Below are positions 8,627 to 22,768 of a stretch of DNA of 59,866 bases, piece after piece. The position numbers were made by a program, and so were the translations under genes. Each line of letters starts with the position of its first letter. The first letter of the stretch is position 1. The stretch spans positions 1 to 59,866 of the forward strand of contig CAZNGS010000020.1 of NCBI GenBank assembly GCA_964572825.1. Reading direction: 5' to 3'. This stretch comes from an uncultured candidatus Brocadiaceae bacterium (GTDB lineage Bacteria > Planctomycetota > Brocadiia > SM23-32). The notes beneath the pieces were generated by a model that searched no databases, had not been told where the DNA came from, and was given only the letters and a program-made list of their open reading frames with translations.

Positions 8627-9235
8627 ATGAACAAAAGAAGCACAGACGATTCCCCCTACAAGACGAGGCCGACGTTGCTGGAACGGGTCAAAGACTTCCG
8701 GGACGAACAGAGCTGGCAGGAGTTCAACCGGCTCTATCGACCCCTGATCCGGTGTTTCCTCTACAAGGTGGGCGTCCCGCGGGAACACGTCCCGGACCTC
8801 ACCCAGGAGGTCATGCAGATCGTGCTCAACCAGATCCCGGACTTCCAGTACGACCCGGAAAAGGGTTCTTTCCGGGGCTGGCTCTACGTGGTCACCGCCA
8901 ACCGCGCGCGCCGCTTCTACCGCCAGCACAGTCGCGGGGCCGACGGCCGGGGAGGGACCACCCACCAGGAACTGCTCCAGCAGTTGCCCGCCGAGGAACG
9001 CGTCAGCGAGATATGGGAGCAGGAATGGCAAAAACGCTGCCTGGAGGAGGCCATGAAAAAGGTGCGGGAACGCGTGAAAGAGTCCACCTGGGAGTCCTTC
9101 CGCCTCGCGACTTTGGAAGGTCTGCCGGCCGAAACCGTGGCACAGAAAACGAACCTGTCCGTCGGGCAGGTTTACGTCAATAAATCCCGCGTATTGAAAT
9201 GGCTGAGAGAAACTGTGGAGGCACTCAATGAATAG
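8627..9235 (+). CDS. ECF (sigma-70 family) RNA polymerase sigma factor.
   Basis: About 200 aa with sigma region 2 (LLERVKDFRDEQSWQEFNRLYRPLIRCFL) and region 4. Its stop overlaps the start of the downstream anti-sigma/kinase gene by 8 nt (ATGAATAG). Confidence 0.8.
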   Translation: MNKRSTDDSPYKTRPTLLERVKDFRDEQSWQEFNRLYRPLIRCFLYKVGVPREHVPDLTQEVMQIVLNQIPDFQYDPEKGSFRGWLYVVTANRARRFYRQHSRGADGRGGTTHQELLQQLPAEERVSEIWEQEWQKRCLEEAMKKVRERVKESTWESFRLATLEGLPAETVAQKTNLSVGQVYVNKSRVLKWLRETVEALNE

Positions 9236-11498
9236 CCAATCCAGCGGACCGGCCGGGGGATGTCCCCCGCCGGAGCTGATCCGGAGGGTGGCCGCCGGAT
9301 GCGCGGCGCCGGATGAAGAACAGCAGGTGGCCCGGCACCTCGATGCCTGCCGGTCCTGCCGGGAGGTGTTCGACGACGCGCTCCCCTTTCGTGAGCGCCT
9401 GGCGGAGCTGCAGGAAGCCGGCACGTCGGCCTTTGAATCGGCAGAGCAAGAAACTCCCCCTTGGGTGCGGCCGACCATCGTGCGGGATGCCGAGGGCCTG
9501 ACGCTGGCGGGCGGCCTGCGCCTGGGCAAGCCGCGGACGACGGATTACCTGGCCTCCCTGGGGGACTACGACATCGCCTCGGTGATCGGCCAGGGGGGGA
9601 TGGCGGTGGTGCTGAAGGCCTACGAGCCAAGCCTCGACCGCCACGTGGCCCTGAAGGTGATGAGTTCCGAATTGTGCGCCGACGAGGTGGCGCGCAAACG
9701 CTTCAAGCGCGAGGCCAGGTCCGCCGCGCGGCTTCACCACCCCAACATCGTCACCATACACACCGTCGGGGAGGATCGCGGCATACCGTTCATCTGCATG
9801 GAATACGTGCCCGGGCAGTCGCTGGCGCTGCTGATCAGCGAGCAGGCCCCCCTGGACGCCTCCACGGCCGCCAGATACGGCCTGGAGATGATCACTGCAC
9901 TGGGCCATGCGCACCGGCATGATATAGTCCACCGCGACGTGAAACCGGCCAACGTGCTGATCGAAAAGGAATCCGACCGCGCCAGACTGACCGATTTCGG
10001 CCTCACCCGGGGCGTGCAGGACGACGTGCGCTACACCCGGGAGGGCGCCGTGACCGGCACGCCCTGGTACATGTCCCCGGAACAGGCGATCGGCACGGCG
10101 AGCCTGGATGGCCGCAGCGACCTGTTCTCCGCGGGGGTGGTTCTGTTCGAGATGCTGGCCGGCGCCCTCCCCTTCCCGGGTCCGAACGGAAGGGAAGTGA
10201 TGGCAAAGATACGAAAGGCATCGGCGCCGGACCTCCGCGAGTTTGCTCCGGGCGTGCCGGCGCAGCTGGCCCGCGTGGTGGAAAAGGCCCTCCGCAAGCA
10301 GCCCGACCGCCGCTACCAGAAGGCCGAAGAATTCGCGGATGACCTGAGGGCTTTTCTGAAGGCATACTCCCCGACCATAGTCCTGGAAGACTCACCCGGT
10401 GTGAAAGGCAGTGCCTCGGGCTCCGCAGGGCGGAATGCCGGGGCCCGCGTGACGCGCTGCGCTGCCTGCTCGAAAAGTATCGCCAGCCGCCTGGGGGTGG
10501 CGGGCGAATGCGAGGTCTGCGGAGCGCCTATCTGCGCGCGGTGCTGGAGCGCCCGCGGCGTGCGTCGGTGCCGGGAACATCAGGACGCAGCGGAGGCCGG
10601 TGAACCGGCCGGACCCGCATCCGCACGCCAGGCCGAAGCCCCTGCCCCCGCCGGTGCGACGTCCCCCGATGATTCCCCCGAGGAGAGTGTCTCCGCGGAG
10701 GGGGCCCGGGTGGCGGAGGAAAGCTTTCTGCGCTGTTTCCGGAACGCTCTGGGCGAAATCTCCCAGGTGACCGATCCGATCAGCGGGCAGAAGATCGAAA
10801 TCAAAAGCTGGCAGGACATGCTGACCAGCTCCGACGATCTGGAAGATGTACAGTCTCTGCTCAAGCACCCCACGTCGGAGGAGGAAGTCCGTCGCCGCTA
10901 CCCCGTCCGGGCTCGGCTGGAGGCGCGGGCGGGGAGCAGGCGCCTCACCGGCCGGAAACCCCGCGTGGTCATCGTGGGCCGCTCCCTGTCGCGGATCGAG
11001 CAGTACTGTGGGCGCGGGCAAGACTCCCGGCCATTGACCCGGACCGAACTGGAGGCCGCCCTCAACGAGTCGGCCGCCCGGGCCCGCGAGCAGGAAACGT
11101 GGCGATTGCTGGTCCTGCACAGTCCCACCGGGTGGGAGCCCGATGCGCGGGCATACGTTACCGGAGACGGAGCAACGCCATTCCGCGATCGATACGTGAG
11201 TCCGGCCCTTTTCGACCGGGAAACGGAGGGATTCCTTTACAACCCCGGTGATGAGCGGCTGGCGGCCTACCGGGACGTTCTCTCGCCCCGCGTGGACCGC
11301 GCAGTGCTGGAACGGGCGCGACGGTTCGTCCTGGATTACGTGGACGTGCACGCGTCAGTGTCCCTGGACACCCTGTGCGCCGAGCTGTCCCTGGGGCGCA
11401 GGGCCGGCCTGCGCGTTCTGCGCGCGCTGGGTCAGGAACAGCGCCTGCGCCTCGAAGAGGTCCAGGGCGTGGGAACTGTCCTCTACAGGGCCTCCTGA
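9228..11498 (+). CDS. Anti-sigma-like zinc-finger protein fused to a Ser/Thr protein kinase, with a C-terminal extension of about 370 aa of unknown function that contains a Cys4 zinc ribbon.
   Basis: The N-terminus has HLDACRSCREVFDD, the anti-sigma zinc-finger motif. It carries a Hanks kinase domain (GQGGMAVVLKAY..ALKVM, HRDVKPANVLI, DFGL, GTPWYMSPEQ). The C-terminus has CAACSKS...CEVCGAPICARCW. Confidence 0.8.
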   Translation: MNSQSSGPAGGCPPPELIRRVAAGCAAPDEEQQVARHLDACRSCREVFDDALPFRERLAELQEAGTSAFESAEQETPPWVRPTIVRDAEGLTLAGGLRLGKPRTTDYLASLGDYDIASVIGQGGMAVVLKAYEPSLDRHVALKVMSSELCADEVARKRFKREARSAARLHHPNIVTIHTVGEDRGIPFICMEYVPGQSLALLISEQAPLDASTAARYGLEMITALGHAHRHDIVHRDVKPANVLIEKESDRARLTDFGLTRGVQDDVRYTREGAVTGTPWYMSPEQAIGTASLDGRSDLFSAGVVLFEMLAGALPFPGPNGREVMAKIRKASAPDLREFAPGVPAQLARVVEKALRKQPDRRYQKAEEFADDLRAFLKAYSPTIVLEDSPGVKGSASGSAGRNAGARVTRCAACSKSIASRLGVAGECEVCGAPICARCWSARGVRRCREHQDAAEAGEPAGPASARQAEAPAPAGATSPDDSPEESVSAEGARVAEESFLRCFRNALGEISQVTDPISGQKIEIKSWQDMLTSSDDLEDVQSLLKHPTSEEEVRRRYPVRARLEARAGSRRLTGRKPRVVIVGRSLSRIEQYCGRGQDSRPLTRTELEAALNESAARAREQETWRLLVLHSPTGWEPDARAYVTGDGATPFRDRYVSPALFDRETEGFLYNPGDERLAAYRDVLSPRVDRAVLERARRFVLDYVDVHASVSLDTLCAELSLGRRAGLRVLRALGQEQRLRLEEVQGVGTVLYRAS

Positions 11499-11526: not shown

Positions 11527-12183
11527 ATGTCCTTGATCGAGAACATCAAGCAAGTCTTCCGGCGCGGCACGCGGCTGGAGGACGTGGACGTGGACGAGTT
11601 GACACGGGAGAAGGTGCGCGTCGAACAGATCGAGAGACGCATCTCCCGGGAATTCGACAGGACGGAGGGCCAGAAGGAGCAGTTGTTCCGGCGTGGCACG
11701 GACCGGACCGGCCGGCGATGGCGGACCATGCTGGCGCGCAAGATAAAGCAGCTCGATCGCCGCGCCCGCGCCAAAGAGCAACAGCTCGCCCTGCTGAGCA
11801 GGCATCTGCGCATCATCGACGGCCTGCTGCGTGTCAAGGAGAACCTGGCCACGCTCCGGCAGCTCGAGCTGGGGTCGGTCATCTCGGCCATGCCCCTCTC
11901 CGACCTGACCGAATACGTCGAGAAGGCCAGCGTGGAGGGACAGTTCGAGATGGAGAAATTCGCTCGACTGGTCGGCGTGCTTGACGGGACGCTGGATGCC
12001 GAAGACTATGAGGACGAAGCAGACGTCGAAGAGATCGTGGCGGCCATGGAGGAGGCACGGGCCGCCGAGGAAGACGGCCAGCCCGCGGAGCTTTCCTCCG
12101 CCTTCAACAGGGTCAACCGCGTGCTCCGCGAGCGACGCGTCCCCGAGGCCCGGGAAATGGAAACGGGAGCCCCCGTTAGCTGA
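11527..12183 (+). CDS. Coiled-coil Snf7/ESCRT-III-like protein.
   Basis: 218 aa, all helical, with a basic N-terminal half and an acidic C-terminal half (DAEDYEDEADVEEIV...). The core LARKIKQLDRRARAKEQQLALLSRHLRIIDGLLRVKENLATLRQLELGSVISAM resembles the Snf7 alpha2-alpha3 region ALQALKRKKRYEKQLAQIDGTLSTIEFQREALENA...AAKAM. Confidence 0.5.
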   Translation: MSLIENIKQVFRRGTRLEDVDVDELTREKVRVEQIERRISREFDRTEGQKEQLFRRGTDRTGRRWRTMLARKIKQLDRRARAKEQQLALLSRHLRIIDGLLRVKENLATLRQLELGSVISAMPLSDLTEYVEKASVEGQFEMEKFARLVGVLDGTLDAEDYEDEADVEEIVAAMEEARAAEEDGQPAELSSAFNRVNRVLRERRVPEAREMETGAPVS

Positions 12184-12191
12184 GGACGGCC

Positions 12192-13358
12192 ATGAGCGTG
12201 GATCTGACCGGCAGTTTGTATGCGGCCTATCGCGGCGCCGTGCGGCGCGGCCAACAGCTCCGTCGCGTGGGCGAGGATCGGCGGGCGGCCGCCGCCTTCC
12301 GCAGTGCCGCGCGGCTGGGCGCCCGCTATGGCGCCTCCGGCGCGGGAACGGCCGAAAGGGAGCGGAGGCTGCGCCAGAGCCGCCGGCTTGAATGGCTGGC
12401 CGACGAACTGGAGCGTGGCCCGTCCTCGACCTGCTCCCCCCCGGGGGAGCGCCGGCAACCCGAAAAGGAGGACGAACTGACGGCCCGGATCGAGGAGCTG
12501 ATCACACGGACCGAGCTCACCTGGGACGACGTCGGCGGCCTGGATGAGGCGAAGTCGCAGCTCCGCACCGCCTTCGCCCTGGCCGTGGCGCGCAAGCCCC
12601 GGGGCGTGCGGATTGACACGGCGCCCAACATCCTGCTCTACGGCCCTCCGGGCACCGGAAAGTCACTGCTGGCGGTGGCCGCCTCGAATTGCCTGGACAC
12701 CACGTTCTTCAGCGTGAAGCCCGGCGGCGTGCTGTCGAAATGGTTCGGCGAATCGCCCCGCCTGGTGACACGGCTCTACCAACTGGCCCGGCGAAGGGCG
12801 CCTTCGGTGGTGTTCATCGACGAACTGGAATCGCTCTTCCCGTCGCGAGACCGGGCGCAGTCCGGCGCCGAGTGCCGACTCCTTTCCGCCCTCCTCAGCG
12901 AGATCAGCGGGGTGCGCGCGGGAGGGAGCGAATCGCCGGTCTTCACCCTGGGCGCCACCAACGCCCCCTGGTTGATGGACGAGGCGGCCCTCAGTCGGTT
13001 CGGCAGGCGCATCTACGTGGGCCTGCCCGATGAAGGGGCGCGGCGTGCCATCCTCCAGATTCACCTGCACCGGAACGGGCACCGACTGGATTTCCCCCTG
13101 GGGCGGCTGGTGCGTGGCACCGCCGGATTCAGCGGCCGGCAGATCGCCGACCTCTGCACCCGGGCGGTGGAGAGCATGGTGGCCGCGCGCAACCCCGACA
13201 TCGAGCAAGCAGCCTCCGGGTGCCGGCGCGCGGTACCTTACCGGATCAGGACGCGGCCCCTGCAATGGCACGATTTCGAGAAGGCGCTGGACCGAATGCA
13301 ACCCGACACCTCGTCCGGCACGCTCCGCAGGTTCGAGAACTGGCAGAGACCCCGATAA
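12192..13358 (+). CDS. Vps4/CdvC-like (meiotic-clade) AAA+ ATPase with an N-terminal MIT-like helical domain.
   Basis: Walker A is LLYGPPGTGKS. LSKWFGESPRLVTRLYQLARRRAPSVVFIDELESL aligns with Vps4 [35 protein letters not shown]. The clade-specific motif LGATNAPWLMDEAALSRFGRRIYVGLPD aligns with Vps4 [28 protein letters not shown]. The N-terminal 75 aa are a basic/Ala-rich helical segment like a MIT domain. Confidence 0.75.
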   Translation: MSVDLTGSLYAAYRGAVRRGQQLRRVGEDRRAAAAFRSAARLGARYGASGAGTAERERRLRQSRRLEWLADELERGPSSTCSPPGERRQPEKEDELTARIEELITRTELTWDDVGGLDEAKSQLRTAFALAVARKPRGVRIDTAPNILLYGPPGTGKSLLAVAASNCLDTTFFSVKPGGVLSKWFGESPRLVTRLYQLARRRAPSVVFIDELESLFPSRDRAQSGAECRLLSALLSEISGVRAGGSESPVFTLGATNAPWLMDEAALSRFGRRIYVGLPDEGARRAILQIHLHRNGHRLDFPLGRLVRGTAGFSGRQIADLCTRAVESMVAARNPDIEQAASGCRRAVPYRIRTRPLQWHDFEKALDRMQPDTSSGTLRRFENWQRPR

Positions 13359-13370
13359 AAGGAAACAGAC

Positions 13371-13964
13371 ATGGGACTGTTCAAATCAAAGACGCAACGC
13401 AAGCTGGAAAGAGAGATCAAGGCCCGCCGGGGTAAAACCCGGATCAAGCGGTTCATCAAAAGCACCGAAAAGGTGCGCAAACGATACTGGGACCTGGCGC
13501 GGGATGCCCTGCGGCTCGGCGACCGGGAGCAGTTCCGCCCGCTCGCCGCGGCCTACGTGCGCGCCGACCAGCAGGTGAACCGCTGGCGGCGCTACCTGCT
13601 CCAGTTGGAAACGCTCCAGGTGCGCCAGCGCGAGGTCAGCGCCACCGGCGAGTTCCTGGAGAGCGTCTCCGCCATGACCAGTTCCATGCTGCGCGGCGCA
13701 GACGCCGAGCAGGTGGCCGCCATGCAGGCGAACCTGGAGGAAGCCCTGGCCCGGTCCCGCGCCGTCGAGGACATGCTGTCCGTCGCGCTGGACGCCAGCG
13801 CGGACTCTATCTTCGGCACGGAAGAGCTCGACGAAGGCCAGCTCGAAGAGCTCTCTCAGGTCATGCTGGCAGACGAGGAGGAACAGGACGAAGTGCGCGG
13901 AGAACAGCCCATCGCCGCCGGCCTGAGGGAGATCGAGCGCGAGATGAGGAGGGAGATGGAGTGA
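13371..13964 (+). CDS. Snf7/CHMP (ESCRT-III)-like protein.
   Basis: 197 aa with a basic N-terminal helix (MGLFKSKTQRKLEREIKARRGKTRIKRF), like the CHMP MGLFGK N-termini. The core DLARDALRLGDREQFRPLAAAYVRADQQVNRWRRYLLQLETLQVRQREVSATGEFLESVSAMTSSMLR parallels the CHMP2A segment MAKQGQMDAVRIMAKDLVRTRRYVRKFVLMRANIQAVSLKIQ...AMKGVTKAMGTMNR. The acidic C-terminus ends in a possible MIM-like helix (GLREIEREMRR). Confidence 0.55.
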   Translation: MGLFKSKTQRKLEREIKARRGKTRIKRFIKSTEKVRKRYWDLARDALRLGDREQFRPLAAAYVRADQQVNRWRRYLLQLETLQVRQREVSATGEFLESVSAMTSSMLRGADAEQVAAMQANLEEALARSRAVEDMLSVALDASADSIFGTEELDEGQLEELSQVMLADEEEQDEVRGEQPIAAGLREIEREMRREME

Positions 13965-15070
13965 GCGACCCCCTGCAGACAGCCCTGCGTCACCTGGACC
14001 TGGCCGTCGAGACGCGCCGCCGGGGGGAACGCTCCGCCGCACGCACGCACTACCTGCGGGCGGCCCGCTGCATGCTGCGGGCCGCCGCCGGCAGCACGGG
14101 TCAGGCGCGCGGCCCACGCCTGCGGAAAGCAGGGGAGCTGCTCGATCGGGCGCGACGGCTCAGCAGCGCGGCCCCCCGGGCCGGCGAGGATGCGGAGCAG
14201 AGCGCCCCCCGGCCGGTCCGGGAGCGCGGCGCCGTCCGGTTCGATGACGTGGTAGGGCTGGAGCGGGCGAAACAGGAGATAAGACTCCGCCTGATCTACC
14301 CGCTGCAGCATCCCGAGAAGGCGGCGCGCTACGGCATCCGCCGGGGTGGAGGGATTCTCCTTTACGGTCCCCCCGGCACGGGCAAAACCCTGCTGGCAAG
14401 GGCCGTGGCGGGGGAAATCGATGCCCCCTTTTTCACCGCCTCTCCTTCCACCATCATGTCCCGCTGGGTGGGTGAGGCAGAACAGAACGTCGCCCGGCTG
14501 TTTGCCCGTGCGCGGCGGCATGAACGGGCCGTGATCTTCCTGGACGAAGTGGAGGCGCTGCTGCCGGCGCGGGCGCTGAGCACTTCCGACGTGATGCGCC
14601 GGGTGGTGCCCCAGATGCTGGCTGAAATGCAGGGGTTCACCCGGGGCGAGGGCGCGCTGCTGTTCCTGGCCGCCACCAATGCCCCCTGGGCCCTGGACCC
14701 GGCCGCGTTGCGCCCGGGACGGCTCGACGTGCGGGTCCACGTGGGGCTGCCGGACCGCGATGCCCGGCGGGCCATGCTGCGGCTCAACCTGCAGAAGCGC
14801 CCGGTGGGGCCGGACGTGAACCTGGATGTGCTGGCGGAGAAAACCGGGAGATGCAGCGGCGCGGACCTGGCGGACCTCTGCGAGCGGGCCGCCGCCGCGG
14901 TGTTTATCGAGAGCATCCGCAGGGGCGTCACGCGACGCATCCGCATGGGCGACCTCCTGTCGATGCTCGCGGAAATGCGACCGTCCGTATCGGCCCGGAG
15001 CGCGGAGGCCTACGAGCGATGGAACCAAAAGGCAGGGAGTTGGTTCGAAAATGCTGCGGCTTCTCGGTAA
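13961..15070 (+). CDS. Second Vps4-like AAA+ ATPase with an MIT-like N-terminus.
   Basis: Walker A is LLYGPPGTGKT. IMSRWVGEAEQNVARLFARARRHERAVIFLDEVEAL and LAATNAPWALDPAALRPGRLD match the Vps4/spastin clade. The N-terminus LRHLDLAVETRRRGERSAARTHYLRAARCMLRAAA...KAGELLDRARRL is MIT-like. It overlaps the upstream gene by 4 nt (ATGA). Confidence 0.75.
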   Translation: MSDPLQTALRHLDLAVETRRRGERSAARTHYLRAARCMLRAAAGSTGQARGPRLRKAGELLDRARRLSSAAPRAGEDAEQSAPRPVRERGAVRFDDVVGLERAKQEIRLRLIYPLQHPEKAARYGIRRGGGILLYGPPGTGKTLLARAVAGEIDAPFFTASPSTIMSRWVGEAEQNVARLFARARRHERAVIFLDEVEALLPARALSTSDVMRRVVPQMLAEMQGFTRGEGALLFLAATNAPWALDPAALRPGRLDVRVHVGLPDRDARRAMLRLNLQKRPVGPDVNLDVLAEKTGRCSGADLADLCERAAAAVFIESIRRGVTRRIRMGDLLSMLAEMRPSVSARSAEAYERWNQKAGSWFENAAASR

Positions 15071-15503
15071 AGTATTGACGTCGCGGTTCACTGCCGCCGG
15101 GGTGATAGCGCTCCTGGCGTGGCAGGGCTGGACGGCGATGGGTCCCGCCGCCACGCCGAAGATGACCGCACGGCAGAGGCCGGCGCCGGCGGACCCCGCC
15201 TCGCGGGAGCAGACGGGCCCGGCGTTTGCGTGGCCGGCCCGGGCGCTCACGTGGCTGGCGGTGGTGGTGATGCTGCCCCTGGCGGTGGCGCCCCTGACGC
15301 GCAGAATGCTGGAGGCGGAGTCGAACGCCATGAACCTGGCCCTGCTGGCCGGGCTGACCGCCGCGGGCGGGTTGACGGCGTGGGCGCTGATGGAATTCCG
15401 GTTGGCCGGGTGGTGGGCCGCGCCCCTGCTGGCGCTGGCCGCGGGGGTGGCGGGTGTTTACAACTGGTTCGTGCTATCGAAACAGGAACAACTCAGGCAC
15501 TGA
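15051..15503 (+). CDS. Small integral membrane protein with 3-4 predicted TM helices.
   Basis: Strongly hydrophobic segments (VIALLAWQGW, WLAVVVMLPLAVAPL, LALLAGLTAAGGLTAWAL, WAAPLLALAAGVAGVYNWFVL). The start is uncertain and overlaps the upstream AAA gene by about 20 nt. Confidence 0.45.
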   Translation: MLRLLGKVLTSRFTAAGVIALLAWQGWTAMGPAATPKMTARQRPAPADPASREQTGPAFAWPARALTWLAVVVMLPLAVAPLTRRMLEAESNAMNLALLAGLTAAGGLTAWALMEFRLAGWWAAPLLALAAGVAGVYNWFVLSKQEQLRH

Positions 15504-15525
15504 GACGCACGGGAGGGAGTCCGTC

Positions 15526-17256
15526 ATGGCACTGTTCAGCAAGACATGTCCTTCATGCGGCGAGAAAGTCGGCCGGGCAGATTCGTTCTGCCCCCATTGC
15601 GGCACCCCGGTGCCGGGGACGAGGTTCGACTGCCCACACTGCGGTGCCACGGTGCCTGGAGAGGCGCAGTTCTGCCCGGAGTGCGGGAAGCCCGTGCGCG
15701 TGAGCCCGGAGGAATCCAGTTCCACGGACGCCTTCAACCGGTGGCGCCGGGAGGAGGGCGTGTTCGCCCGGCGCATAGATGCCACCGAACTTCGGGGCAA
15801 GGCGGGCAGGGGACTGGTCATCGAACCCGGCTCCCGCGCCCTCGTCTTCCAGGCCGGCAGACTGGTGGGAGGAGTCGAACCGGGCACCTACGACCTGACA
15901 AAGGAGGTCGAGGCAGAGGGCGGCCTGGCGGCGCGTGCGCTGCGGCTTCTCCGGCGCATCTTCCTGGGTGAAAGGGACGTCGCCCCGACCACCGCCGTGC
16001 TCATGGACGCAGGCGACGTGACCCTCACCGTGGGCTATACGGACCTGCGCACCAGCGAGGACGCCCGGGTCAACGCCACGTTCCAGATGGTGGTGCGCCT
16101 GGGGGAGCCGTCCGCGCTTTTCCAGAACCTGATGCACGGCCGACGGGAACTGAGCCACCAGGAGCTGGAGGAGCTGCTCTCCAGCGAGAGCGCCAACACG
16201 GTGCAGGCCCACGTGCGGGGTGTCTCCGTCAGGGAACTCTACGGCAACACGGAACTGGCCGATGCCCTGGAGCAGGACCTGCGTGAGAACGTCGGCAAGG
16301 CGCTGGAGGGCTACGGCCTCCAGCTCGTGCGCCTGAAATTCGTGCAGTTCTACGGCGATGCCTACGAGAAGGCGCGCGATGCCCACGAGCAGACGTTCAT
16401 GGCCGAGGAGATGGTCGCGGAAAGGGAGCGCCGCGCCGAGCTGAGGCGGCGCCTCCGGGATGTTCTGACCCAGAACAAAATGGATGAATTCGCCTCAAGC
16501 GCGGAGCTGGAGGAGTTCATCCGCCAGCAGGAGCACGAGCTGGGAATGAAGGACGTGTTGCGCCAGGAGGAGATGGAGGAGCTCAAACGAGCACACGACC
16601 AGAAAAGGCTCGAGGCCCGGCACGTGCTGGAGATGCTGGAGGTCAAGCAGAAGGGCGAGATCCTCCAGGAGAAACTCAAACAGCGTGAGGCCGTCTCCGA
16701 CGCAGAGCTGAGGGAAAAGGACAAAAAACTCGACTTTGCCCTGACTGCCCGGGGCAAAAAGGACGAACTCGACCTGCAACGCCAGCGCGAGGAGCAGGCC
16801 CTCGCCGAGGAGGCCAGGGAGGACGAAGCGCGCCGCGAAAGGGAGCGCCTCGAGACCATGCAGAACCTGAGCGAGGAGCAGATACTGGCCCTCGCCGCCA
16901 GGGAATCCCCCGAAGCGGCCAAAGCCATGGTCGAACGCTACAGGGCCCAGGCCTCCGGAAACGAGGAGGTCAAGGAGCTCTACGAGCGGATGGTGGACCG
17001 ACTGGAGAGGATGTCGCGCGAAAGCATGCGCGCCCAGGCCGACACCGCCGCCGGCCGCATCGGCGCCGAGCGTCAGAGGGCCGACCAGGCGAAGGAAATG
17101 TCCGAGAAGGCCATGGAGGGCATGGCCCACGTGGCCGGTGCCAGGGCCGGCGCCCAACCGGCCGAGGCCGTGGAAGCGCGCTGCCCCAACTGCAACAATC
17201 CCGTCGGGACGGATGACGCCTTCTGCGGCCATTGCGGCCACAAACTCAAGGAATAG
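15526..17256 (+). CDS. Double zinc-ribbon protein with an SPFH/band-7 (flotillin-like) domain and a long coiled coil.
   Basis: The N-terminus has CPSCG...FCPHCG...CPHCG...FCPECG. The SPFH-like core is GLVIEPGSRALVFQAGRLVGGVEPGTYDL ... VRLKFVQFY. A long E/R/K-rich coiled coil follows. The C-terminus has the zinc ribbon CPNCNN...FCGHCGH. An RBS GGGAGGGAG lies upstream. Confidence 0.7.
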   Translation: MALFSKTCPSCGEKVGRADSFCPHCGTPVPGTRFDCPHCGATVPGEAQFCPECGKPVRVSPEESSSTDAFNRWRREEGVFARRIDATELRGKAGRGLVIEPGSRALVFQAGRLVGGVEPGTYDLTKEVEAEGGLAARALRLLRRIFLGERDVAPTTAVLMDAGDVTLTVGYTDLRTSEDARVNATFQMVVRLGEPSALFQNLMHGRRELSHQELEELLSSESANTVQAHVRGVSVRELYGNTELADALEQDLRENVGKALEGYGLQLVRLKFVQFYGDAYEKARDAHEQTFMAEEMVAERERRAELRRRLRDVLTQNKMDEFASSAELEEFIRQQEHELGMKDVLRQEEMEELKRAHDQKRLEARHVLEMLEVKQKGEILQEKLKQREAVSDAELREKDKKLDFALTARGKKDELDLQRQREEQALAEEAREDEARRERERLETMQNLSEEQILALAARESPEAAKAMVERYRAQASGNEEVKELYERMVDRLERMSRESMRAQADTAAGRIGAERQRADQAKEMSEKAMEGMAHVAGARAGAQPAEAVEARCPNCNNPVGTDDAFCGHCGHKLKE

Positions 17257-17267
17257 CGGGGGATCGA

Positions 17268-18620
17268 ATGGTGGATCAGGAGGCACCCGAACACGCCGCA
17301 TCCCGCCCCTGCCATAACTGCGGCGAGACCGCGCCGGCGACCGCCACCTACTGCACTCGATGCGGAGCCGAGATTGAGCCCGAAATCCTCCTGGAGGTGG
17401 AGACCGGCCGGCAGCACGTGCGGGACCATGCCTCCCAGCTTCGGTTCCGGCTGAGCGGCAACGTGGAGCCGGGCTGCGGCGCGGCCCTGGAGGCCGTGCT
17501 CAGCGGAGGCCCCGGCGAGATCGAACAGCGGGCCCCGGAACGGCGGCAGACCGGTCGGCTGGACGGAAAGGGCGGGCAGGCCATCTTCGCATTCCGATTC
17601 CGCCCGCTGGTGGCGGGCGAGTTTCCCCTGGACCGCCTGCGCCTCAGCCTCCTCCGTGCGGACAAACCGGATGCGGCGCACCGCTACGACCTTCCCGATC
17701 GCAGCTTCTTCGTGCGCGTGGCCGACCCCGAACTGGAGGGCCGCCAGCAGGCCGGCATCCGCATCGAGGGCGGCATTCACGTAAACGTCCAGGACATCCT
17801 CGCCAGCGACATGGGCAGCCTGTTCGACATACGCACGGCAGACAAGGCACAGCAGGGCCGCGCCGACACCGGGTGGCAGCCCATCGAACTCCGCTTTACG
17901 GGGACAACGGATGCGGCCCCCTGCCAGGCGGAGGGGTGCGACGGCCCCGCAGCCGCCGATGAGGCATTCACCTGCGCGCACTGTTCACGCACGCTCTGCC
18001 CTTCCCACGCGGACCCCGCCCGGCCGGGCCACTGCACCGCGTGCGCCGAGCAGGCCCGGGAGGAGGAGTTCGCGGAGGCCATCTCTGCCGTCGGCGCGCA
18101 GCCACGGCCCGACCCGGCGTCGGCCGTGCTGGGTAAGACCACCCACGCGAAGCCGCCCTTCCGCGCCCGCATCTGGACCGAAGGGGGCGGCGGCCCCGCC
18201 CGGAGGGACCTGGCGGCCGTCCCCCGCCGGAGCAAAGGGGTGTTCCGGATCGGCGATTCGTTCGCCCTGAACGCCCAGTCGGAGAGAGACTGCTACCTGA
18301 CCCTTGTGGACGTCGGCACCAGCGGCAACGTTTACCTGCTGCTGCAGAATCATCCGCTCCGGGCCGGCGCGCCGGTCAGCCTCTCCGGCCCGGACAAAAG
18401 CAAGCGGTGGCTGGTGAACGGCCCGCCCGGCGTGGAGCGCATCAAGGCGTTCTTCACCCTCCGGCCGGTCTCTCTGGTTCCGGAGAAGCGATCTTTCGCG
18501 CAGCTCTCCCCGGAGGAGACGCGCGAGATCAGCCGACACGTTTCAGCGACTCGCGGCCGGCTCGGGGAACTGCCCGCCGAGGCATGGACCGACGCAACCT
18601 GCGAGTTCGTCATCAAGTAA
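17268..18620 (+). CDS. Zinc-ribbon protein with a conserved central domain of unknown function and a C-terminal DUF4384-like domain.
   Basis: The N-terminus has CHNCG...YCTRCG. The central ~190 aa are paralogous to the N-terminal half of the gene at 18828-20213. The C-terminus CYLTLVDVGTSGNVYLLLQNHP...KAFFTL matches the DUF4384 pattern. Confidence 0.6.
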   Translation: MVDQEAPEHAASRPCHNCGETAPATATYCTRCGAEIEPEILLEVETGRQHVRDHASQLRFRLSGNVEPGCGAALEAVLSGGPGEIEQRAPERRQTGRLDGKGGQAIFAFRFRPLVAGEFPLDRLRLSLLRADKPDAAHRYDLPDRSFFVRVADPELEGRQQAGIRIEGGIHVNVQDILASDMGSLFDIRTADKAQQGRADTGWQPIELRFTGTTDAAPCQAEGCDGPAAADEAFTCAHCSRTLCPSHADPARPGHCTACAEQAREEEFAEAISAVGAQPRPDPASAVLGKTTHAKPPFRARIWTEGGGGPARRDLAAVPRRSKGVFRIGDSFALNAQSERDCYLTLVDVGTSGNVYLLLQNHPLRAGAPVSLSGPDKSKRWLVNGPPGVERIKAFFTLRPVSLVPEKRSFAQLSPEETREISRHVSATRGRLGELPAEAWTDATCEFVIK

Positions 18621-18827: not shown

Positions 18828-20213
18828 ATGGCACGGACATGCGACAGGTGCGGCCAACCGGCGAGGGAAGGAGACCGCTTCTGCCGGTCCTGCGGGGAGG
18901 AGCTGGCGCCGGCGGTGGTGCTGGAGGTGGAGACGGGCCGCACCCACGTGCAGGGCCACGCCTCGCAACTCCGCTTCCGGGCCACCAGCAACTGCAGCTT
19001 CCCCTGCGGCGTAACCCTGTCGGTCCTGCTGCACGGCCGGGGAGACCACGTGGAGCAGCCGGCGCAAGAGCGCGAGCAGTGCTGCCAGTTCCAGCGCCGC
19101 GGCGAGCAGTTCATCTTCAGCTTCCCGTTCCGCGGGCTCATCCCCGGCGAGTTCCCACTCGACAACCTGAGCATGACGGTCACCCGACCGGACCGGCCGG
19201 GGGAGGCGTTCATCTATGAACTGCCGGACCGCAGCCTGTTCGTGCAGGTGGCGGACCCCGAGCTGGAGCATTCGGGAAGCGGCATGTCCATCAGCGGCGG
19301 CATCCACCTGGACCTCTCGCACCTGCGGGAGATATACGGCAGCGACGTGACGGACCTGTTGAGGCTCAGCTCCGATGCCACGCCCGAACACCCGCAGCAG
19401 GAGCGGGGCTGGCAGCCCATACGCCTGCGGCTGGCCGAGCGGGTCGAGGGCGGCCTGATGCCCGGTGAGCTGGTGGTGCGCCTGCCCGGGGACGTGCCCC
19501 TGGAGCTGGTGCGGGTCGGGCCAGGCCGTTTCACCATGGGCAGTCCGCCGGACCGGGGTCGAGAGGACGAACGCCCCGCCCATCCCGTGAGCATCACCTG
19601 CGATTTCTACATCGGCAGGTTCCCCGTTACCCAGCAGCAGTACGAGGCCCTGGCGGGCGAGAATCCCTCCGCCAGACCGGGTCCCCGGCGGCCGGTGGAA
19701 CGCGTTTCCTGGCAGCAGGCCGTCGAGTACTGCCGGGCCCTCCGCGCGTATCTGGGCCGCAGCCCGGACGCCCTGGAGGAAGGGTCAGTTGAAGTGGAGG
19801 AGGTGGACCTGCCAACGGAGGCGGAGTGGGAATACGCCTGCCGCGCGGGCTCGGACACGGCCTACTGCTTCGGGGACGACCGCACACTGCTTCGCGACTA
19901 CGGCTGGTACGACAAGAACTCCGATCATGAAACCCATCCGGTGGGCGAGCTCAAGCCCAACGCCTGGGGCCTGCACGACGTGCACGGAAACGTGTGGGAA
20001 TGGTGCAGGGATTACTACGCCCCGGATTATTACACGACGGAGGCCGCCGAGGACCCGCAAGGGCCCGAGACCGGCGAGAGGCGCGTGCTGCGGGGCGGCT
20101 CGTGGAGCTATTATGCCCGCGACTGCCGCTCGGGCCGGCGTCACAGCGCGCTGCCGACGGACCGAACGCCGAACTACGGCTTCCGGGTCGTGGCGCGTGT
20201 TTTGCAGAGTTGA
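18828..20213 (+). CDS. Zinc-ribbon protein with the conserved paralogous domain fused to a C-terminal FGE-sulfatase (SUMF1/formylglycine-generating-enzyme-like) domain.
   Basis: The N-terminus has CDRCG...FCRSCG. The segment [21 protein letters not shown]...[12 protein letters not shown]...[16 protein letters not shown]...[10 protein letters not shown] is paralogous to the 17268-18620 gene. The FGE domain has RFTMGSP...[14 protein letters not shown]...[13 protein letters not shown]...[24 protein letters not shown]...VLRGGSW. Confidence 0.75.
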
Positions 20214-20226
20214 ACATGGAGACTGA

Positions 20227-21324
20227 TTGATGCGCTGTGAGCATTGTGGCGCAGAGGTGTCTTCGGAGGATCGGTTCTGCCCCCGGTGCGGTCGGCGGGT
20301 CGAGGCCGGCGGCGACATCCTGGATGAAGTTAACGGCGAACTGGCTGAAATGGAGGCGGAGCTGGATTCCTACCTGGAGCAGGCAGTCGGCCCGCTGGAC
20401 GTCGAGGTGGACCCGGATGCCCGGGAAGATCAGCCCCGGCGGGCGAAGCCCCGGGCCGCGCGGGCCGAGCTGGTCCATCAGCAGGAATGGCTGGCCCTGC
20501 TGGACGTGCCGCCCGAGCAGGTGAGGCAGTCGGCGAACTTTGTGTTCGACTCGCCCTCCATCCAGGGCAATTCCCAGTACGCGGAGCGCGTCGCGCGGAT
20601 CGACTTCGTCTACACGCCGGACCACGACGAGGTGAACGCCTTCGCCACGGACGATCCGGCCGCTCTGCCGCCGGACGTGTCGGCCACGGTGCCGGCGGTG
20701 GTCTACCGGGCAGGCCTGGCGCGGGCCATCCGGGTCGTCTCCCTGGCGCTGGCCGGCCACCTGCGGGCAAGCCGCGGGCAATCGTCCGATGCGGAGCCGG
20801 CGGTCCTCGTGCAGACCTTCCGCGAGGTGGGTGCAGAGATCGTCCGCCTGGAGGGCGGTTTCCCGCGGGAATCGGCCGGTCGGATCTGCCGGGACGTGGT
20901 GGCGCCGCTTCTGCCCGACGACGCGTCGGCCCACCTGTCCCGGGCCCGGTCGTGCTCGGCCGCCATGGACATGTACGTGGTCGCACACGAGGCGGGGCAC
21001 GTTGCCCTGGGACACACGCTCAGCGACGCGTTGAACTACGATATGTCACGCAACCAGGAGCGGGAGGCGGACAGCTTCGCCGCGACGGCGCTCTCCACGT
21101 GCCCCTTCAGCCAGTACATGTTCCTGGGTCACGCGCTGGTGGCCGCCGTTTTTGCCTGGACCGATCACGCCGCTGCACTGGCTGAGGAATCCACGCATCC
21201 GCTGGGACGGGAGCGATTTGCCAACGCCCTGACCTGCAACCGGGAGGCGGCCCGGGAAGCGGCGGAAGAGTTCGGCCTGACCCGAGAGCGTCTCCGGCGG
21301 ATGCTGCCGCCGGAGGAGAGGTGA
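20227..21324 (+). CDS. Zinc-ribbon protein with a C-terminal ImmA/IrrE-family-like (HEXXH...E) zinc metallopeptidase domain.
   Basis: The N-terminus has CEHCG...FCPRCG. The C-terminus VAHEAGHVALGH...NQEREADSFAATAL matches the HExxH plus downstream EAD motif of ImmA/IrrE (COG2856)-type peptidases. Confidence 0.55.
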   Translation: MMRCEHCGAEVSSEDRFCPRCGRRVEAGGDILDEVNGELAEMEAELDSYLEQAVGPLDVEVDPDAREDQPRRAKPRAARAELVHQQEWLALLDVPPEQVRQSANFVFDSPSIQGNSQYAERVARIDFVYTPDHDEVNAFATDDPAALPPDVSATVPAVVYRAGLARAIRVVSLALAGHLRASRGQSSDAEPAVLVQTFREVGAEIVRLEGGFPRESAGRICRDVVAPLLPDDASAHLSRARSCSAAMDMYVVAHEAGHVALGHTLSDALNYDMSRNQEREADSFAATALSTCPFSQYMFLGHALVAAVFAWTDHAAALAEESTHPLGRERFANALTCNREAAREAAEEFGLTRERLRRMLPPEER

Positions 21325-21388: not shown

Positions 21389-22768
21389 ATGAGTGTAGTG
21401 CTCGAGGTGACCAGAGGTCGGCACGCGGGCAGGGAGTTCAAGCTCGACGGCCACGAGACCTTCATGGTAGGGCGGGGGAACAAGGTGCAGTTTCGTATTC
21501 TGGGCGACCGCTTCTTCTCGCGCTATCACTTCATGATCGAGGCCAACCCCCCCGAGTGCTTCCTGCGCGACCTGGGCAGCACGAACGGGACCTTCGTCAA
21601 CGGCCGCCGGGTGCGCCAGGTCCACCTGAGCGACGGGGACCGGATAAGGGGCGGCAAGACGGAGCTGGTTGTCCACGTGCGTGAGGAACCGGCCGAGGCG
21701 GCCGCATCGGAACCAGCACCCGGGCCGGCGGCCGTCGGCGCGCCGGACATGGGCACCACTTTCTCGGCCCGGGCCCCCGACAGGGGCGCGGGCAAAGAAC
21801 TGCATTGCGCCATCTGCGGCAGGATCGCCGAGGAGACGCGCCTGGGCGACCTGGAGGACACGCGCTTGATCAGCTATGTGTGCGAGGACTGTCACCACGA
21901 GAACCGGGACGAGACGCATCCCATCCCCACCTTCGAGGTGCTCGACGAACTGGGAAGGGGCTCCCTGGGGCCCGTCTACAAGGCCAGACGCCTCAACACC
22001 GACAAGCTGGTGGCCCTGAAGGTCGTCCCGCCCCGCCTGGGCGTCAACCCCCGGGCCGTAAAGCTGTTCCTGCGCGTGATGCAGCTCAGCGGCGGCCTCG
22101 ACCATCCCAACATCGTGCCGCTGGTCGAGATGGGCGAGTCGGGCGGCGAGCTGTGGATCGCCACGGAGTATGTCGACGGCGTGGACGCGGGGGAACTCAC
22201 CGCTCGCCGGGGTGGCACGCTTCCCCCGGCGGAGGCGGTGGACATCACCTGTCAGGTTCTGGACGCGCTGCACTACGCCCACCGGCTCAATCTGGTCCAC
22301 CGCGACGTGAAACCCACCAACGTCCTGGTCACCGGCGAGCCGGGGGACTACGACGCCAGGCTGGGCGATTTCGCCCTGATGAAAAACATCGACGAGGCCG
22401 GCCTCAGCGGCATCACGCGCAGCGGTGAGGTGCGGGGCACCGTGCCTTTCATGCCGCCGGAGCAGATCATCGACTGCCGCTTCGTCAAACCCGCCGGTGA
22501 CATCTACCAGGTCGGCGCCACGCTCTACTGGCTGCTGACGGGCGAGTATGCGCACGACTTCGAGGCCCGGGACAAACGCGGGGAGGTCAAGGACCCCTTC
22601 CTGGTCATTCTGGAGGACCCGGTGGTGCCCGTTGGCGAGCGGGAACCATCGGTCCCGCAAGCTCTGGCGCGGGTGGTCGAGACGGCGCTGGCGCGCGCGC
22701 CCGAGGATCGGTTCGAATCCGCCGGCGAGATGAAAGCCACGCTGCGGAAGGCCCTCGGCTCAGGGTGA
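21389..22768 (+). CDS. FHA-domain Ser/Thr protein kinase.
   Basis: An N-terminal FHA domain (FMVGRGNKVQFRILGDRFFSRYHFMIE...GSTNGTFVNGRRV) precedes a Cys-rich segment CAICG...CEDCHHE. A Hanks kinase follows (LGRGSLGPVYKA, ALKVV, HRDVKPTNVLV, DFAL). Confidence 0.8.
   Translation: MSVVLEVTRGRHAGREFKLDGHETFMVGRGNKVQFRILGDRFFSRYHFMIEANPPECFLRDLGSTNGTFVNGRRVRQVHLSDGDRIRGGKTELVVHVREEPAEAAASEPAPGPAAVGAPDMGTTFSARAPDRGAGKELHCAICGRIAEETRLGDLEDTRLISYVCEDCHHENRDETHPIPTFEVLDELGRGSLGPVYKARRLNTDKLVALKVVPPRLGVNPRAVKLFLRVMQLSGGLDHPNIVPLVEMGESGGELWIATEYVDGVDAGELTARRGGTLPPAEAVDITCQVLDALHYAHRLNLVHRDVKPTNVLVTGEPGDYDARLGDFALMKNIDEAGLSGITRSGEVRGTVPFMPPEQIIDCRFVKPAGDIYQVGATLYWLLTGEYAHDFEARDKRGEVKDPFLVILEDPVVPVGEREPSVPQALARVVETALARAPEDRFESAGEMKATLRKALGSG

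What the first reader, a model, noticed from the sequence alone, without database searches (positions are those of the whole stretch)
11527..15070. Bacterial ESCRT-III/Vps4-like module: two Snf7-like proteins alternating with two MIT-AAA (Vps4-type) ATPases
Four consecutive, translationally coupled genes have gaps of 9 and 12 nt and a 4-nt overlap. They encode a coiled-coil Snf7-like protein, a Vps4-like AAA ATPase, a CHMP-like protein, and a second Vps4-like AAA ATPase. Both ATPases carry meiotic-clade hallmarks that I can read directly: '...SKW.GE.E.LV..L...AR...P.V.FIDE...L' and 'GATNAPW.LD.A..RRFGRRIYVGLPD', matching Vps4 '[26 protein letters not shown]'. Their N-termini look like MIT three-helix bundles. 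The two small proteins have the ESCRT-III layout: a basic N-terminal helical hairpin, an acidic C-terminal tail, and an Snf7/CHMP2-like core. The gene 13371-13964 even begins 'MGLFKSK', like the CHMP N-termini. PspA/Vipp1-type ESCRT-III relatives are known in bacteria, but they are not normally partnered with MIT-domain Vps4-type ATPases. A duplicated Snf7-like/Vps4-like pair in a bacterial (Planctomycetota-like) context would be an unusual and possibly undescribed membrane-remodelling system. It may have been acquired from Asgard/TACK archaea, or it may be ancestral.
Basis: partly seen in the sequence, partly recalled or inferred. Interest (0 to 1): 0.92.

Follow-up and report, generated by a model that had tools for sequence, protein, structure and literature searches.

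The report
Bacterial ESCRT-III/Vps4-like gene cluster
A planctomycete contig carries a conserved operon in which an Snf7 (ESCRT-III) family protein and a second look-alike protein sit next to two MIT-domain AAA ATPases, one of them Vps4-type, a pairing that recent reviews describe as absent from bacteria.

Summary
The four genes are real, tightly packed (gaps of 8 and 12 nt, one 4-nt overlap) and conserved in order in other Planctomycetota.

- **C (13371-13964)** belongs to the Pfam Snf7 family: 28 of 31 relatives match.
- **B (12192-13358)** is Vps4-like. It has an N-terminal MIT-type three-helix bundle and a Vps4-type arginine-finger segment. Its best fold matches are katanin, fidgetin-like 1, Vps4 and spastin.
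- **D (13961-15070)** also has the MIT-like domain, but its arginine-finger segment is the CDC48/FtsH type (RPGRLD).
- **A (11527-12183)** has no significant sequence or fold match. It does share the ESCRT-III layout, the charge asymmetry and a weak collinear profile similarity to C that beats every control.

The module sits in a larger conserved cluster: ECF sigma, Ser/Thr kinase, a membrane protein, a zinc-ribbon SPFH protein and further zinc-ribbon proteins. Related A/B or C/B pairs occur in Verrucomicrobia, Chloroflexi and Eisenbacteria MAGs.

The best reading is a kinase-regulated ESCRT-III polymer with a disassembly ATPase acting at the membrane. I found no paper describing this pairing in bacteria. 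Bacterial Snf7 homologues and bacterial MIT-Vps4-like ATPases have each been noted separately.

The parts
8627..9235 (+). ECF-type sigma factor. It is the first gene of the conserved cluster and overlaps the kinase gene by 8 nt.
   Evidence: Pfam Sigma70_r2 4.8e-11 and Sigma70_r4_2 1.4e-4. Conserved upstream of the kinase in L001, L004 and L025.
9228..11498 (+). Ser/Thr protein kinase. It has an N-terminal H-x3-C-x2-C motif (HLDACRSC, anti-sigma-like) and a conserved C-terminal region of about 350 aa of unknown fold.
   Evidence: Pfam Pkinase 3.7e-48 at residues 114-364. The C-terminal 356 aa have no Pfam hit but are conserved in L001, L004, L005, L016 and L025. The motif was read directly from the translation.
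11527..12183 (+). Protein A: a 218-aa helical-hairpin protein. It is a candidate second ESCRT-III-like subunit and the presumed partner of ATPase B.
   Evidence: No Pfam or PDB sequence hit. The AF2 model has pLDDT 84.6, with a short N-terminal helix, a 38+43-residue hairpin and then short helices. ESCRT-III superfamily proteins are enriched among the best fold matches, but none is significant. Net charge is +11/-16. Collinear hhalign match to the C family scores 24.1, P 1.4e-4, and 0 of 81 controls reach it. Always adjacent to a B-type ATPase.
12192..13358 (+). Protein B: MIT-like domain plus a single Vps4/meiotic-clade-type AAA cassette and a C-terminal helix.
   Evidence: Pfam AAA 2.3e-31. 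N-terminal family alignment: MIT is the top Pfam family (13/39 members, best 4.8e-5), and whole-domain PDB matches include VPS4B, MITD1 and katanin MIT domains. The AF2 model has pLDDT 90.1 and shows a three-helix bundle at 6-75, the AAA domain and a C-terminal helix at 375-385. Foldseek top 7 are katanin, FIGL1, Vps4 and spastin. The arginine-finger segment scores 40 bits in one stretch with archaeal and yeast Vps4, against 22-24 bits per p97 domain with a 2-residue gap. Vps4_C matches 34/57 family members.
13371..13964 (+). Protein C: Snf7 (ESCRT-III) family protein with a conserved C-terminal amphipathic helix (a MIM1-like spacing of hydrophobic residues).
   Evidence: Pfam Snf7 E 3.6e-6, 27.2 bits against a cut-off of 27.3, covering residues 21-173 of the protein and positions 9-156 of 171 in the model. 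28 of 31 relatives match Snf7, best 1.3e-8. PF03357 is precomputed for this very protein. The C-terminal D178, I181, L185, E189, M192, R193, K194 and E195 are nearly invariant while the preceding linker varies. Net charge is +15/-18.
13961..15070 (+). Protein D: MIT-like domain plus a single classic-clade AAA cassette with a CDC48/FtsH-type arginine-finger segment (RPGRLD).
   Evidence: Pfam AAA 1.9e-37 and AAA_lid_3 7.5e-8. The N-terminal profile matches the chitin synthase 1 MIT domain at 1.8e-4 and VPS4A/B MIT domains weakly. It is homologous to the B N-terminus: hhalign probability 97.7%, E 1.7e-12. For the arginine-finger segment, FtsH scores 50.5 bits and p97 D2 39.3 bits, with no Vps4 among the top 60.
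15051..15503 (+). Protein E: a small membrane protein with 3-4 predicted transmembrane helices. The ATG at 15051 is the assumed start.
   Evidence: Kyte-Doolittle peaks. Conserved after D in L001, L003, L004, L008, L015, L016 and L017. No Pfam hit.
15454..17256 (+). Protein F: two zinc ribbons, an SPFH/Band-7 domain, a long coiled coil and a C-terminal zinc ribbon. Likely a membrane-microdomain scaffold.
   Evidence: Pfam Zn_Ribbon_1 2.2e-18, DZR 1.7e-14 and Band_7 1.6e-12. Conserved in L001, L004, L016, L017, L011, L026 and L028.
17232..18620 (+). Protein G: zinc ribbon plus DUF4384.
   Evidence: Pfam DUF4384 2e-11 and Zn_Ribbon_1 7.9e-5. Conserved in L004 and L016.
18828..20213 (+). Protein H: zinc ribbon plus an FGE-sulfatase-like domain.
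   Evidence: Pfam FGE-sulfatase 3.2e-51 and Zn_ribbon_3 1.3e-6. Conserved in L001, L016 and L017.
20227..21324 (+). Protein I: zinc ribbon plus a Lit/peptidase_U41-like region.
   Evidence: Pfam Zn_Ribbon_1 1.4e-7. PADLOC peptidase_U41 1.2e-8 and Lit 1.1e-6 at residues 242-347. Its membership of the system is inferred from position only.
21389..22768 (+). Protein J: FHA domain plus Ser/Thr kinase.
   Evidence: Pfam FHA 6.6e-16 and Pkinase 3.9e-36. 53% identical in the same relative position in L016.

Best explanation
This is a bacterial ESCRT-III/Vps4-like membrane-remodelling or membrane-repair machine.

**Proposed mechanism.** C (Snf7 family) and probably A (a very divergent paralogue) are soluble, auto-inhibited helical-hairpin subunits. 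They polymerise on the cytoplasmic face of the inner membrane through their basic N-terminal halves and short N-terminal hydrophobic motifs. Their acidic tails end in conserved helices. These helices are bound by the MIT-like three-helix domains of the hexameric AAA ATPases B and D. The ATPases then thread subunits through pore loops (SKWFGE in B, SRWVGE in D) and so turn over or constrict the polymer, as Vps4 does.

**Accessory parts.** The membrane protein E and the zinc-ribbon SPFH protein F would mark or scaffold the site. The ECF sigma factor, the sigma-linked Ser/Thr kinase and the FHA-kinase would switch the system on, most likely in response to envelope stress.

**Shown here:** gene order and its conservation, family membership of C, the MIT-like domains, the Vps4-type features of B and the AAA catalytic motifs.

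**Inferred:** polymerisation, membrane binding, MIT-tail recognition, which ATPase serves which subunit, and the physiological trigger.
For: - **C is Snf7 family.** Pfam Snf7 in the window protein (27.2 bits, E 3.6e-6) and in 28 of 31 relatives.
- **Both ATPases have MIT-like domains.** MIT is the top Pfam family for the B N-terminus, with whole-domain matches to solved VPS4, MITD1 and katanin MIT domains. The D N-terminus is homologous to it, E 1.7e-12.
- **B is built like Vps4.** AF2 shows a three-helix bundle, a linker, the AAA domain, the lid and a C-terminal helix at pLDDT 90. Its best structural matches are katanin, FIGL1, Vps4 and spastin. Its arginine-finger segment scores 40 bits with Vps4 against 22-24 bits per p97 domain. 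Vps4_C hits 34 of 57 family members.
- **Catalytic motifs are intact.** Walker A and B, sensor-1 and pore-loop aromatic residues are present in B and D.
- **A and C share an ESCRT-III-like design.** Both show the charge asymmetry and conserved extreme C-terminal helices behind variable acidic linkers. A has the ESCRT-III helix layout, ESCRT-III superfamily enrichment among its best fold hits and a collinear profile match to C above 81 controls.
- **Linkage is conserved.** C lies next to B and/or D in 17 of 19 distinct loci. A-like genes flank B-like ATPases in Verrucomicrobia, Chloroflexi and a Nanohaloarchaea-like contig. In an Eisenbacteria MAG a B-like ATPase overlaps a C-family Snf7 gene by 4 nt.
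- **Archaeal ESCRT loci have the same kinds of accessory genes.** They carry Ser/Thr kinases, FHA proteins and an SPFH protein with coiled coil and zinc ribbon (PMC10936438). SPFH YdjI localises PspA in Bacillus, as cited there.
Against: - No experiment exists for any member.
- A has no significant sequence or structure match, so calling it ESCRT-III-like rests on weak signals.
- D's arginine-finger segment is CDC48/FtsH type, not Vps4 type.
- Whole-protein scores for B and D are as high for CDC48 D2 as for CdvC, and far below the CdvC equivalog cut-off: 151 and 199 bits against 650.
- The window's C protein is 0.1 bit under the Pfam gathering score.
- The C-terminal helices do not fit the canonical MIM1 consensus: G replaces R at position 7 and E replaces K/R at position 12.
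- B has only one Arg (SRF) where Vps4 has RRF.
- The distribution is patchy. Some related clusters contain a nuclease, a trypsin-like protease and transposases, as conflict systems often do.
- Some loci lack D or B.
Confidence: 0.68

Rival explanations
1. It is a biological-conflict (anti-phage or damage-response) system. Kinases and zinc-ribbon sensor proteins detect an insult. The AAA ATPases and helical proteins then act as effectors or regulators, for example by sealing or deliberately perturbing the membrane. In this reading the ESCRT-like parts serve immunity rather than housekeeping membrane dynamics.
For: Occurrence is patchy and accessory: only 43 clusters for C and 27 for A in 5.8 billion proteins. 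Several Ser/Thr kinases, an FHA domain, a Lit/peptidase_U41-like protein and an FGE-sulfatase domain lie in or beside the cluster. Related clusters carry an SNase nuclease, a trypsin-like protease, HTH_17 proteins and transposases. The gene content varies between lineages.
Against: PADLOC gives no specific hit for A, C, E, F, G or H; only generic AAA and kinase-domain hits appear. No relatives of A or C were found in 2.9 million viral contigs. The core order sigma-kinase-A-B-C-D-E-F is stable at 40-60% identity across Planctomycetota families, which looks like vertical inheritance. This reading does not contradict the molecular mechanism of the best explanation, only the physiological role.
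Confidence: 0.15
2. It is a constitutive cell-division or vesicle-budding machine analogous to archaeal CdvABC/ESCRT. It would be used by Planctomycetota, many of which lack FtsZ, for budding, membrane invagination or vesicle formation rather than for stress repair.
For: It has the same core parts as Cdv/ESCRT systems: ESCRT-III plus a MIT-AAA ATPase. One related cluster has a tubulin/FtsZ-like gene beside the ATPase. Archaeal Halo_adaptin ESCRT loci contain a CetZ-like gene. That many Planctomycetes lack FtsZ is taken from my own knowledge and from PMC10936438.
Against: Only five of 185,579 species-representative genomes carried a C-family gene detectable by the pattern scan, which is far too sparse for an essential division machine of the phylum. 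The cluster is headed by an ECF sigma factor and a kinase, which suggests conditional expression. No CdvA-like protein was found.
Confidence: 0.09
3. It has no membrane role. B and D are substrate-specific unfoldases or segregases, and A and C are their coiled-coil adaptors or substrates in a signalling or proteostasis pathway. The Snf7 hit would reflect only a shared helical-hairpin scaffold.
For: A has no family assignment. D resembles the CDC48/FtsH unfoldases in its arginine-finger segment. Helical hairpins produce many non-specific fold matches.
Against: The Snf7 match in C covers nearly the whole domain (model positions 9-156 of 171) and recurs in 28 of 31 relatives. A membrane protein and an SPFH protein are conserved partners. 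MIT domains are known ESCRT-III tail binders (PMC9477494, listed). A and C have the charge asymmetry and N-terminal hydrophobic motif typical of membrane-binding ESCRT-III.
Confidence: 0.07

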